Assembly: GCF_054482595.1 (NCBI RefSeq)
Contig: NZ_CM137008.1
Reading direction: 5' to 3' (one strand)
Length of the DNA stretch: 64,000 bases
Under the pieces are notes generated by a model. The model was given only the letters and a program-made list of their open reading frames with translations, did not search any database and had not been told where the DNA came from. This document shows positions 61,609-64,000 of the stretch, piece by piece. The position numbers and the translations under genes are program-made. Position 1 is the first letter of the stretch; each line of letters starts with the position of its first letter.

Positions 61609-61827
61609 GATAGCCTCATCAATAATAAGGCTTTATGCTAGATGCATTCCGCTTTGCGACTCAACATTTTTCACCTAAAGGATGACAAAATCACATAAAT
61701 AATTTAAAAATCATAGCATTAGATTACTTAATGATTAAATAATAGACTGCAAAACGCGACAAAACACAACATATCCAGTCACTATGAATCAACTACTTAG
61801 ATGGTATTAGTGACCTGTAACAGAGCA

Positions 61828-61867
61828 TTAGCGCAAGGTGATTTTTGTCTTCTTGCGCTAATTTTTT
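61828..61867 (+). terminator. terminator-like hairpin (10-bp stem, T6 tract)
   Basis: TTAGCGCAAG...CTTGCGCTAA with 14-nt loop followed by TTTTTTG; no obvious upstream plus-strand gene. Confidence 0.4.
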
Positions 61868-62226
61868 GTCATCAAACCTGTCGCACTCCAGAGAAGCGCA
61901 ACGCCTCGCAATCCAGTGCAAAGCTTTGCGTGCCCCCACTACGACCTGCATAACCAGTAAGAAGATAGCAGTGATGTCAAACGACGCAGATGTCTTCTTT
62001 TCTTTCATGACTTCTCCAGCATGCATATCTTTCTGCCATGACTGAAGTGAATGCCTGTTATGAGCGAGGATTGGCCCAGACTTAGATAATGAGAGAGCAC
62101 GGTGCTAATACCCAGACACGTCACCAGCCAGGCAACAACAGATGGGGTCATAGCAACATTTTGGAAGGTATCTTCGTATCATGATGTGGTTAAATAGACA
62201 TAATTTAACCCAATGGAATTTTCGCC

Positions 62227-62829
62227 ATGCTAACCTTCTGGCACGAATATTCAGATCTCATATCCGCATTTTTAGCAGCTCTTTTAGGTGGCTGTTTCAC
62301 GATGATTGGAGTGACAACTCAGGTGAAACAGCAGGCAAAACAGCAGGCAACAGCGGCCAGAGAGAAGCGTATAACAACGCTATTGGGTGTCAGAGAGGAA
62401 ATAGACTCACTGATTAAACTGTATCAGGCCAGAATGGCAGAAGAAATCGAAAAATACGACCGGAACTCACCGTTCGATAACATTTTCCCCATTACTCAAA
62501 ACTACTTCACGTTCTATGAAGCCAACTCGGCATCCCTACCTGAAGTTCATAGAGAAACACTCTCAAAAATTGTGGCTTTTTATACAAGCGCAAGAAGCCT
62601 AATTGATTCCTATCGCGGCAATAATGCGCTTATCGAACGGCTAGACTCCACGCAGGTTGCAAGTGACATTACTGGCAACAAAGAACATCTTGCACACCTG
62701 AAAAGATACACAATCCTAGCCACAGAGTACGGCCGCGGATTAATGATGATTCATGATGAGGTCATGCTCCGCTATAAACAGGTTATAGAAGCCATCGATG
62801 GTGAAATCTCACAGCTACAATGCAGTTAG
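62227..62829 (+). CDS. hypothetical membrane-anchored protein
   Basis: 200-aa ORF; one N-terminal hydrophobic helix (LISAFLAALLGGCFTMIGV) then KQQAKQQ and helical/charged region; weak SD; AT-rich context. Confidence 0.45.
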   Translation: MLTFWHEYSDLISAFLAALLGGCFTMIGVTTQVKQQAKQQATAAREKRITTLLGVREEIDSLIKLYQARMAEEIEKYDRNSPFDNIFPITQNYFTFYEANSASLPEVHRETLSKIVAFYTSARSLIDSYRGNNALIERLDSTQVASDITGNKEHLAHLKRYTILATEYGRGLMMIHDEVMLRYKQVIEAIDGEISQLQCS

Positions 62830-63310
62830 CACTACAACCTGTCCGCATATTGAGCGACACGGTCGGATTTAGTGGGCTGAATGTCCGTTGTGAGCACTTA
62901 ACGGACATTGCTAACCGCCTTCTGAGTGAATTATCAGGGAGTAGGTCAAGATGGGACGTAGAGCACAAATCGTGGACAACATTTTTCGGGCACTTTTTAA
63001 AAATGACTAAACTGGTAAAATTCGATGTTATGAGCTGCGCTTTTAAGGGCCGTTAGTCGCATAGATTGTTAATCTATTCAGCGTTACTCATTCTCCAGAT
63101 TACCAGTTTAAATGGATGCACGGCCACCATGTTAAAATCTAACGCGGCCCTAAAGTCAGAGTGTAATGGGAAATGCAAGAAGTTATTTTCGTGCGCGTTC
63201 ACTGGCGCACCTTGAGCAACCATTTCTCAATGCGTCTTAAAAGAGATGACTTGACTAAATTATGTATGCACTATCTGAATCTGATTTTTTTACTTAAAAG
63301 GGGGTTTTCA

Positions 63311-64000
63311 ATGACAGCAATAGCCTGCTGGCTAAACAGGGAAGAAGGGGAAAGTATCTGGGCCGTAAGCGACTCAAGAATCACCCAGCATGAAAGTGTA
63401 ATGACAAATCACTGTCCTAAACTATTCTCGATTCCGGTATCAGTTATTCGCTCCAATGACATATACCGTCTATCTCCGGAAAAAATTATGGAGTTTGGTT
63501 TCGGCTTTGCAGGAGGAACAATGATCGGTATAAATGTGAAGGAGTTACTTGCCGTATCATTATCTTCATTACATGAAGTTAATTATTATGATGTTCAGCA
63601 GCCGGAGTTGACTTATGATAGTTACCCGAGTCTTTATGAAATTGCAGTTTTAACAAAGGGAATCGCAGAAAAATTTATACTGGATATTGGCCAGTTTTTT
63701 CCCCGTTCTGTAGCAACGGAGATGATTATTTACGGATTCTGTTTCAGAACACAGGTACATAAAATCATTAAGATCTACAACACCCCATCAAACCCCACTA
63801 ATCTTGTAATTGAGGACTGCCTTGACCTGACAACAGGTACCCCGGTAGTCTTGGGAGACAGAAAGCAGCAGTTTCGGGAAGATATTGAGATGACGAGGGG
63901 GCGTTTTGAGAATGGCACACTTAACTGGTGGCGGGCGCCATTTATCGCGTTAAACAACTGGATATCACAGGACACCGTAAATACAATTGGTGGGTATATT
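63311..64000 (+). CDS. hypothetical protein with HslV/proteasome-beta-like N-terminus (partial, runs off window end)
   Basis: Strong SD AAGGGGG 7 bp upstream; open frame to window end (not in ORF track, no stop); MTAIA...WAVSDSRIT and GFGFAGGT resemble HslV MTTIV...IAGDGQAT and AGFAGGTAD. Confidence 0.5.
   Translation, partial: MTAIACWLNREEGESIWAVSDSRITQHESVMTNHCPKLFSIPVSVIRSNDIYRLSPEKIMEFGFGFAGGTMIGINVKELLAVSLSSLHEVNYYDVQQPELTYDSYPSLYEIAVLTKGIAEKFILDIGQFFPRSVATEMIIYGFCFRTQVHKIIKIYNTPSNPTNLVIEDCLDLTTGTPVVLGDRKQQFREDIEMTRGRFENGTLNWWRAPFIALNNWISQDTVNTIGGYI

What the first reader, a model, noticed from the sequence alone, without database searches (positions are those of the whole stretch)
61609..64000. 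torS sensor kinase missing from its expected site; replaced by AT-rich foreign DNA
torT, torR and torCAD plus the tor boxes are intact, but no ORF of TorS length (recalled as ~914 aa, divergent from torT in K-12) exists in the 2.4 kb beyond torT. An ATGAAT at ~61784 runs into a stop after 8 codons (possibly the relic torS start), followed by AT-rich sequence with unrelated genes. Either torS was displaced by an insertion longer than the remaining window or it was deleted, which would uncouple torCAD induction from TMAO sensing.
Basis: partly seen in the sequence, partly recalled or inferred. Interest (0 to 1): 0.5.

Follow-up and report, generated by a model that had tools for sequence, protein, structure and literature searches.

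The report
Prophage end between torT and torS
The DNA beyond torT is the right end of an HK022-type lambdoid prophage sitting in its normal chromosomal attachment site, so torS is almost certainly pushed about 48 kb away rather than lost, a published situation seen in about 4% of E. coli genomes.

Summary
Nothing of TorS length lies in 61609-64000, and the DNA beyond torT is foreign and AT-rich (42% vs 53.5% GC).

The window matches E. coli K-12 up to the 11-bp sequence TTCACCTAAAG (61670-61680). This is the core of the phage HK022 attachment site, which lies in the 82-bp torS-torT spacer. From 61681 the sequence is the phage attP P arm. It carries two Int arm-type sites and the lambda sib/tI terminator, followed by prophage cargo genes. 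This is attR.

The "relic torS start" at 61784 lies between the two Int sites and is phage sequence.

In the three chromosomes that share this 2.7 kb at 99.8-99.9%, two were examined. In both, a complete ~48 kb lambdoid prophage follows, ending in an HK022-type integrase next to an intact 914-aa torS.

Across 5,426 complete genomes, 5,215 have the empty site, 197 this attR and 192 the matching attL.

Carey et al. (eLife 2019) showed that such prophages drive torS from a phage promoter. This shuts off aerobic torCAD expression and leaves anaerobic TMAO induction intact.

The finding is already known. One cargo gene encodes an unannotated proteasome-like threonine hydrolase, which is worth a note.

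The parts
60580..61608 (-). torT, intact (342 aa)
   Evidence: ORF. It is 99.7% identical to EC5502 TorT with no internal stops.
61609..61669 (.). Native torT-proximal part of the torS-torT spacer. It keeps the torT promoter region and, according to the literature, the IscR site and the now orphaned torS start site TSS1.
   Evidence: One mismatch to K-12 over 72 bp including the core. The functional elements come from PMC6814406 and were not mapped here.
61670..61680 (.). att core TTCACCTAAAG, shared by K-12 attB and HK022 attP. By my recollection the 7-bp overlap is TTCACCT (reverse complement AGGTGAA). The host/phage junction is 61680/61681.
   Evidence: Alignment of attB, attR, attL and attP. 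Every non-lysogen genome listed stops matching at window 61680.
61681..61819 (.). P arm of the phage attP, now part of attR. It holds the Int arm-type sites P2 (CAGTCACTAT, 61776-61785) and P1 (ATTAGTGACC, 61806-61815). The 8-codon ATG ORF at 61784-61810 lies between them.
   Evidence: Window 61662-61871 is 89.5% identical to HK022 20449-20657. Window 61761-62070 is 93.7% identical to lambda 27328-27644, where the lambda record annotates 'int 1 | int 2' sites. The assignment of the arm-site consensus is from my knowledge of lambda attP.
61820..61869 (+). sib/tI-type hairpin terminator of the int transcript. In the prophage it is separated from int and faces transcription coming from the torT side.
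   Evidence: RNA fold of -24.3 kcal/mol, z = -5.6, 0 of 200 shuffles as stable, followed by a U run. It lies inside the lambda-homologous stretch. The identification as sib/tI is from my knowledge of lambda.
61870..62070 (.). Rest of the lambda-like b-region segment next to attP. The minus-strand ORFs at 61793-62026 and 62005-62151 are probably not genes.
   Evidence: The lambda match ends at window 62070 and lambda annotates no CDS there. Neither ORF has a Pfam or PHROG hit.
62227..62829 (+). Cargo gene 1: a 200-aa protein with an N-terminal membrane helix followed by a helical bundle. Function unknown.
   Evidence: Annotated as hypothetical WP_021577015.1. It is conserved at 55-96% identity in Serratia, Cronobacter, Dickeya and others. 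There is no Pfam or PHROG hit and only marginal ZorB/MotB hits to the membrane segment. The AF2 model has pLDDT 79 and is all helical. It occurs without cargo gene 2 in other genomes (H7/H8).
63311..64000 (+). Cargo gene 2: the first 230 of 299 codons (it ends at about 64210, outside the window). It encodes a proteasome-beta/HslV-like Ntn hydrolase with a C-terminal extension.

Best explanation
Window 61670-64000 is attR and the adjoining cargo ('b') region of a lambdoid prophage with HK022-type integration specificity. The prophage is inserted by site-specific recombination at attB(HK022), in the 82-bp spacer between the divergent torS and torT genes.

Shown here:
- The exact junction, the shared 11-bp core, and the P arm with its Int sites and sib/tI hairpin.
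- The same junction in 197 complete E. coli genomes.
- In two of the three chromosomes that share this exact sequence, a complete ~48 kb prophage follows. It ends with xis, an int 97% identical to HK022 Int, attL and an intact torS.

Inferred for this strain, because the window ends at 64000:
- torS is intact about 48 kb further on.

From published experiments on HK022 lysogens and strain NRG 857C:
- Integration cuts torS off from its own promoters and from IscR repression.
- torS is then transcribed at a higher level from a promoter in the phage P' arm.
- Excess TorS over TorT keeps TorR dephosphorylated in air, so aerobic torCAD expression and the associated bet-hedging are lost.
- Anaerobic TMAO induction is normal.

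The P' arm is identical to HK022 over the 45 nt next to the core in both relatives, so I expect the same behaviour here.
For: -: K-12 attB is CAACCTTT-TTCACCTAAAG-TGCACCGACCGTG. The window is identical apart from one mismatch through the core, then continues GATGACAAAATCAC. HK022 attP continues GATGACAAAATAAC.
- the P arm is 89.5% identical to HK022.
- 93.7% identical to lambda 27328-27644, which holds the Int sites. Stx1a phages annotated with 'duplication due to insertion' also match.
- full prophage, int and torS (2745 bp) in EC5502 and 4FM.
- Int is 97% identical to HK022 Int.
- TorS is 914 aa, 99.1% and 97.3% identical to K-12. The attL P' arm is identical to HK022.
- 5,215 genomes with the empty site, 197 with attR, 192 with attL.
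- Carey et al. 2019 (PMC6814406) give the mechanism and report that about 5% of genomes carry a prophage here.
Against: - The window stops 2.3 kb into the prophage, so the prophage body, int, attL and torS of this particular strain are unseen.
- The source strain is not in the genome collection. The best match is 98.7% identical, and the IS2 in cbpA is unique to the window.
- 197 genomes have attR and 192 have attL, so a few genomes with this attR may lack the canonical int-torS junction.
- The regulatory consequence was measured for HK022 in K-12 and for one wild strain, not for this prophage. The authors caution that behaviour may vary among prophages at this site.
Confidence: 0.93

Rival explanations
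1. torS was deleted, alone or with neighbouring DNA, when or after the foreign DNA arrived. This strain would then lack the TMAO sensor kinase and torCAD would be uninducible.
For: No torS lies in the 2.4 kb after torT. The strain carries active IS elements, with IS2 in cbpA, which could mediate deletions. Five more genomes have attR than attL.
Against: The junction is a clean att core rather than a deletion scar. The first 2.3 kb is 99.8-99.9% identical to prophages that are complete and flanked by intact torS. A torS 5' end is present in 5,413 of 5,426 genomes.
Confidence: 0.04
2. The foreign DNA is a decayed prophage remnant or a small cargo island that kept attR, rather than a full, inducible prophage. 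torS would lie closer than 48 kb and might be driven differently.
For: Prophage decay is common. In strain 1506 the same site holds a different cargo gene (a diguanylate cyclase), IS1 and broken tail-fibre genes.
Against: The two chromosomes examined that share this exact attR-plus-cargo sequence both have a complete lambdoid prophage of about 48 kb. The same phage has also moved into a plasmid, which suggests recent activity.
Confidence: 0.03

Closest known systems
Phage HK022 prophage at attB(HK022) between torS and torT (Carey et al., eLife 2019, PMC6814406; HK022 genome NC_002166)
   Same: Same attachment core and position. The P arm is 89.5% identical. In relatives, Int is 97% identical and the P' arm next to the core, which the paper says carries the torS-driving promoter, is identical over 45 nt.
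   Different: The prophage body is lambda-like: gpJ, Lom, side tail fibres, lambda-type Red/Gam, O/P replication genes and nin genes, about 48 kb. HK022 is 40.7 kb. The b-region cargo also differs, since HK022 carries cor there.
Stx1a-converting phages of O26:H11 and other STEC integrated at torS-torT (e.g. LC744179-LC744184; PMC10042803)
   Same: Same integration locus. Their att-adjacent 250 bp is 86.6% identical to window 61634-61885.
   Different: No stx genes are seen in the related prophages examined here, and the cargo is different.
Phage lambda attP P arm and the sib/tI retroregulator
   Same: 93.7% identical over 317 bp, including the two Int arm-type sites and the tI hairpin.
   Different: The core and core-proximal sequence are HK022-type, not lambda-type, so the phage integrates at torS-torT and not at gal-bio.
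Phage-associated proteasome homologues PPH, RPC and DPH (Fuchs, Alva & Lupas, Bioinformatics 2021, PMC8665760). This applies to cargo gene 2 only.
   Same: Proteasome-beta/HslV fold with an N-terminal Thr, found in Proteobacteria within phage contexts. It has a C-terminal extension of unknown fold, as described for RPC.
   Different: Membership of RPC or DPH was not tested because no reference sequence was at hand. The paper says PPH/RPC lack helix H2, and I did not check this in the model.

Membership tests
HK022-type lambdoid prophage integrated at attB(HK022), torS-torT | The host/phage junction falls at the HK022 att core inside the torS-torT spacer. | tested here: met
   TTCACCTAAAG at 61670-61680 is shared with K-12 attB and HK022 attP, and divergence from K-12 starts at 61681.
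HK022-type lambdoid prophage integrated at attB(HK022), torS-torT | The phage side of the junction is an attP arm with Int arm-type sites. | tested here: met
   89.5% identical to the HK022 P arm and 93.7% identical to the lambda P arm with annotated Int sites. The sites lie at 61776-61785 and 61806-61815.
HK022-type lambdoid prophage integrated at attB(HK022), torS-torT | An HK022-type tyrosine integrase and attL adjoin torS at the other end. | not testable with these tools
   This lies outside the window. It is met in EC5502 and 4FM, which are 99.8-99.9% identical to 61300-64000: Int is 97% identical to HK022 Int and attL is in the HK022 position.
HK022-type lambdoid prophage integrated at attB(HK022), torS-torT | A complete prophage body lies between attR and attL. 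| not testable with these tools
   This lies outside the window. It is present in EC5502 and 4FM.
HK022-type lambdoid prophage integrated at attB(HK022), torS-torT | A phage-borne promoter drives torS, and aerobic torCAD expression is silenced. | not testable with these tools
   The function is experimental (PMC6814406). Here I could only show that the P' arm in relatives is identical to HK022 over 45 nt.
torS loss (deletion or pseudogene) | torS is absent or truncated in the genome. | not testable with these tools
   The window ends at 64000. Population data argue against loss: a torS 5' end is present in 5,413 of 5,426 genomes and attL in 192 against attR in 197.
Proteasome beta/HslV-type Ntn hydrolases (MEROPS T1), for cargo gene 2 | Proteasome-beta alpha-beta-beta-alpha sandwich fold. 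| tested here: met
   [not shown]
Proteasome beta/HslV-type Ntn hydrolases (MEROPS T1), for cargo gene 2 | An N-terminal Thr nucleophile with the Asp17/Lys33 equivalents and a Gly-rich oxyanion loop. | tested here: inconclusive
   T2, D21, K37 and G63/G68 are invariant in 20 homologues. hhalign aligns them with HslV D17, K33 and FAGGT, but only at E = 0.07. Exposure of Thr by Met removal and catalytic activity were not tested.
Proteasome beta/HslV-type Ntn hydrolases (MEROPS T1), for cargo gene 2 | Sequence-profile match to the Pfam Proteasome family or to a solved proteasome or HslV chain. | tested here: not met
   No Pfam hit at E <= 1. No proteasome or HslV hit in the PDB sequence search at E <= 10.
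Known anti-phage defence systems (PADLOC-DB 2.0), for the cargo genes | Profile match to a catalogued defence protein. | tested here: not met
   Cargo genes 2 and 3 have no hits. Cargo gene 1 has only marginal ZorB/MotB hits to its membrane segment (E = 0.002-0.006).

The most novel reading that the evidence does not exclude
The torS/torT part is known biology. The most novel reading left open concerns the cargo. The 299-aa proteasome-like Thr hydrolase starts at 63311. Its homologues sit as single genes in P2-like and lambdoid prophage hotspots and in an integrase island. It could be an undescribed single-gene prophage function, either superinfection exclusion or anti-phage defence, acting by proteolysis. 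The membrane/helical protein at 62227-62829 would be a second, independent moron.
Probability: 0.25. Interest if true: 0.5.

Novelty: already known. Interest (0 to 1): 0.15.

Why it matters
For annotation, a missing torS next to torT should be read as an occupied attB(HK022), not as loss of the TMAO sensor. The expected phenotype is a change in regulation, not loss of TMAO respiration. torS becomes phage-driven and is no longer repressed by IscR, aerobic torCAD expression and bet-hedging are lost, and anaerobic induction is retained. This is already published (Carey et al. 2019), so the window adds one more natural example, with a lambda-like rather than HK022-like phage body. The only new lead is the unannotated proteasome-like cargo gene.

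Tried and rejected
- **Relic torS start at 61784:** rejected. It lies in phage P-arm sequence that is near-identical in lambda and HK022.
- **Identifying the source strain to read its own torS:** failed. The best genome is 98.7% identical and lacks the IS2 in cbpA.
- **Consensus terminator scan:** it missed the tI hairpin because its loop and bulges exceed the scan's rules. Direct folding found it.
- **Pfam, PADLOC and PHROG searches on the cargo proteins and the two small minus-strand ORFs:** nothing usable except phrog_19262 (unknown function) for the third cargo gene, which lies outside the window.
- **PDB sequence-profile search for cargo gene 2:** no proteasome hit.
- **afdb50 fold library:** not available.
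- **Literature searches for a proteasome-like anti-phage protein:** no defence paper was found, only the bioinformatic census of proteasome homologues.
- **Cargo genes 1 and 2 as one operon-like system:** rejected. Each occurs without the other elsewhere.

Full report
**What is in the window**

The ORF list and the sequence show cbpM, torD, torA and torC on the minus strand, torR on the plus strand and torT on the minus strand (60580-61608). All are full length.
- The torR-torC spacer is 129 bp, differs at one base from strain EC5502 and carries three exact CTGTTCATAT boxes.
- Beyond torT, no ORF longer than 200 aa ends inside the window.
- GC drops from 0.535 to 0.424.
- The 8-codon ATG ORF at 61784 is real.

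So the raw observation stands.

**Where the host sequence ends**

In K-12 the torS-torT spacer is only 82 bp. Reading from torT towards torS, K-12 has ...GCGACTCAACCTTT TTCACCTAAAG TGCACCGACC GTG(torS). The window has ...GCGACTCAACATTT TTCACCTAAAG GATGACAAAATCACATAAAT....
- Apart from one mismatch, identity with K-12 runs to 61680 and stops there.
- In a search of 5,426 complete E. coli genomes with a 401-bp probe centred on this point, every non-lysogen listed stops matching at exactly 61680.

**What the foreign DNA is**

- Phage HK022 attP reads ...ATACAACTTA TTCACCTAAAG GATGACAAAATAACATTAATC.... It has the same 11-bp core and the same continuation as the window.
- Window 61662-61871 is 89.5% identical to the HK022 P arm.
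- Window 61761-62070 is 93.7% identical to lambda 27328-27644, where the lambda record annotates Int-binding sites. I recognise the arm-type sites as CAGTCACTAT (61776-61785) and ATTAGTGACC (61806-61815). This assignment rests on my knowledge of lambda attP.
- The hairpin at 61820-61869 folds at -24.3 kcal/mol (z = -5.6) and is followed by a U run. It corresponds to lambda's sib/tI element.
- Stx1a-converting phages, whose records annotate a 'duplication due to insertion' at this sequence, also match.

The window therefore contains attR (B'-core-P) of a lambdoid prophage with HK022 integration specificity.

**What lies beyond the window in the closest genomes**

Three chromosomes share 61300-64000 at 99.8-99.9% over its full length: EC5502, CREC-2 and 4FM. 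I examined EC5502 and 4FM.
- The cargo genes are followed by side tail fibre genes, lom and J.
- A full lambda-like set of tail, head, lysis, nin, O/P, immunity and Red genes follows.
- The prophage ends with xis and int, then attL, then torS of 2745 bp.
- The integrase is 97% identical to HK022 Int.
- The attL P' arm is identical to HK022 over the 45 nt next to the core.
- TorS is 914 aa and 99.1% (EC5502) and 97.3% (4FM) identical to K-12 TorS.

The window's own strain is not in the collection. The best match is 98.7% identical, and its IS2 insertion in cbpA is unique. Its torS is therefore inferred, not read.

**How common this is**

| Site state | Complete E. coli genomes |
|---|---|
| Empty torS-torT site | 5,215 |
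| This type of attR | 197 |
| Matching int-core-torS attL | 192 |
| torS 5' end detectable | 5,413 of 5,426 |

The empty and occupied classes together account for essentially all genomes. Occupancy is about 3.6%, close to the roughly 5% reported earlier (PMC6814406). On these numbers, the prior that a genome with this attR keeps int-attL-torS is about 97%.

**How it works (from the literature)**

Carey, Mettert, Fishman-Engel, Roggiani, Kiley and Goulian (eLife 2019, PMC6814406) studied exactly this site.
[quoted passage not shown] It also ablates the promoter of the other start site (TSS2).
- torS is not silenced. It is transcribed at a higher level from a start site inside the phage P' arm.
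- torT transcription is unchanged.
- Excess TorS relative to TorT favours TorR dephosphorylation. Aerobic torCAD expression and the bet-hedging it supports are abolished.
- Anaerobic TMAO induction is unaffected.
- Wild strain NRG 857C, which carries a prophage at this site, behaves the same way.
- The authors also showed that the functional torS start codon is a downstream ATG, not the annotated GTG.

The P' arm is conserved in the relatives of the window, so I expect the same rewiring here. This has not been measured for this prophage.

One inference of my own: the orphaned TSS1 promoter left on the torT side now points into the P arm. It should be stopped by the tI hairpin before reaching the cargo genes.

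**The 'unrelated genes'**

Between attR and the tail-fibre genes lie three genes on the int-parallel strand. This is the lambda b-region position.

*Cargo gene 1* (62227-62829, 200 aa)
- It has an N-terminal membrane helix and a helical bundle (model pLDDT 79).
- It is conserved in several Enterobacterales.
- It has no informative family hit.

*Cargo gene 2* (63311 to about 64210, 299 aa, cut by the window end)
- It has no Pfam, PADLOC or PHROG hit.
- T2, D21, K37 and G63/G68 are invariant.
- hhalign against E. coli HslV places D21, K37 and FAGGT on D17, K33 and FAGGT, though only at E = 0.07.
- Homologues are single genes in a P2-like prophage between ogr and gpD (Providencia), in a lambdoid prophage beside a RelA/SpoT-domain gene and the repressor (Serratia), and next to an integrase (Citrobacter).
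- Phage-borne proteasome homologues have been catalogued: PPH, RPC with a C-terminal extension, and DPH (PMC8665760). Gene 2 may belong to RPC or DPH. I could not test this.
- Its function is unknown. A role in phage exclusion or defence is a guess based on its location.

*Cargo gene 3* lies outside the window and matches only phrog_19262, of unknown function.

**Verdict**

The 'displaced by a long insertion' reading is right, and the 'deleted/uncoupled' reading and the 'relic start' are not. The phenomenon is a textbook site-specific integration at a known attB, with a regulatory consequence that is published. Novelty: already known. Interest is low, apart from the side lead of the proteasome-like cargo gene.

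Noticed in passing
[not shown]
   Followed up: partly
window 62227-62829: Cargo gene for a 200-aa protein with a membrane anchor and a helical bundle. It is highly conserved (55-96%) across Serratia, Cronobacter, Dickeya and E. coli, has no family assignment, and occurs independently of the neighbouring proteasome-like gene.
   Followed up: partly
window 53171-54501: A 1331-bp IS2 with a 5-bp target duplication is inserted in cbpA at about codon 138. None of the nearest complete genomes has it, so cbpA (curved-DNA-binding DnaJ homologue) is disrupted in this strain.
   Followed up: partly
L006 (plasmid pSM107_MCR, NZ_CP130669.1) about 11990-26331: The same lambdoid phage (100% identical to window 61670-64000) is integrated into a 111-kb pil/shufflon conjugative plasmid named pSM107_MCR. 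It sits at a secondary att site, TTCACATAAAG, inside a thermonuclease gene, which it truncates.
   Followed up: partly
L002 (strain 1506, NZ_CP059288.1) 6310-12635: Another genome with the same attR and lambda-like P arm carries different cargo at this position: a sensor-domain diguanylate cyclase, plus IS1-disrupted tail-fibre assembly genes. The b-region cargo next to attR therefore varies among prophages at torS-torT.
   Followed up: no
window 55349-55401: A segment of about 53 bp between cbpM and torD does not align with strain EC5502. It is probably a small intergenic indel or a repeat-element difference.
   Followed up: no
L004 12444-12454 versus L007 attL: The attL core differs by one base between two lysogens of the same phage: TTCACCTTAAG in EC5502 and TTCACCTAAAG in 4FM. 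The difference lies just outside the presumed 7-bp overlap.
   Followed up: no
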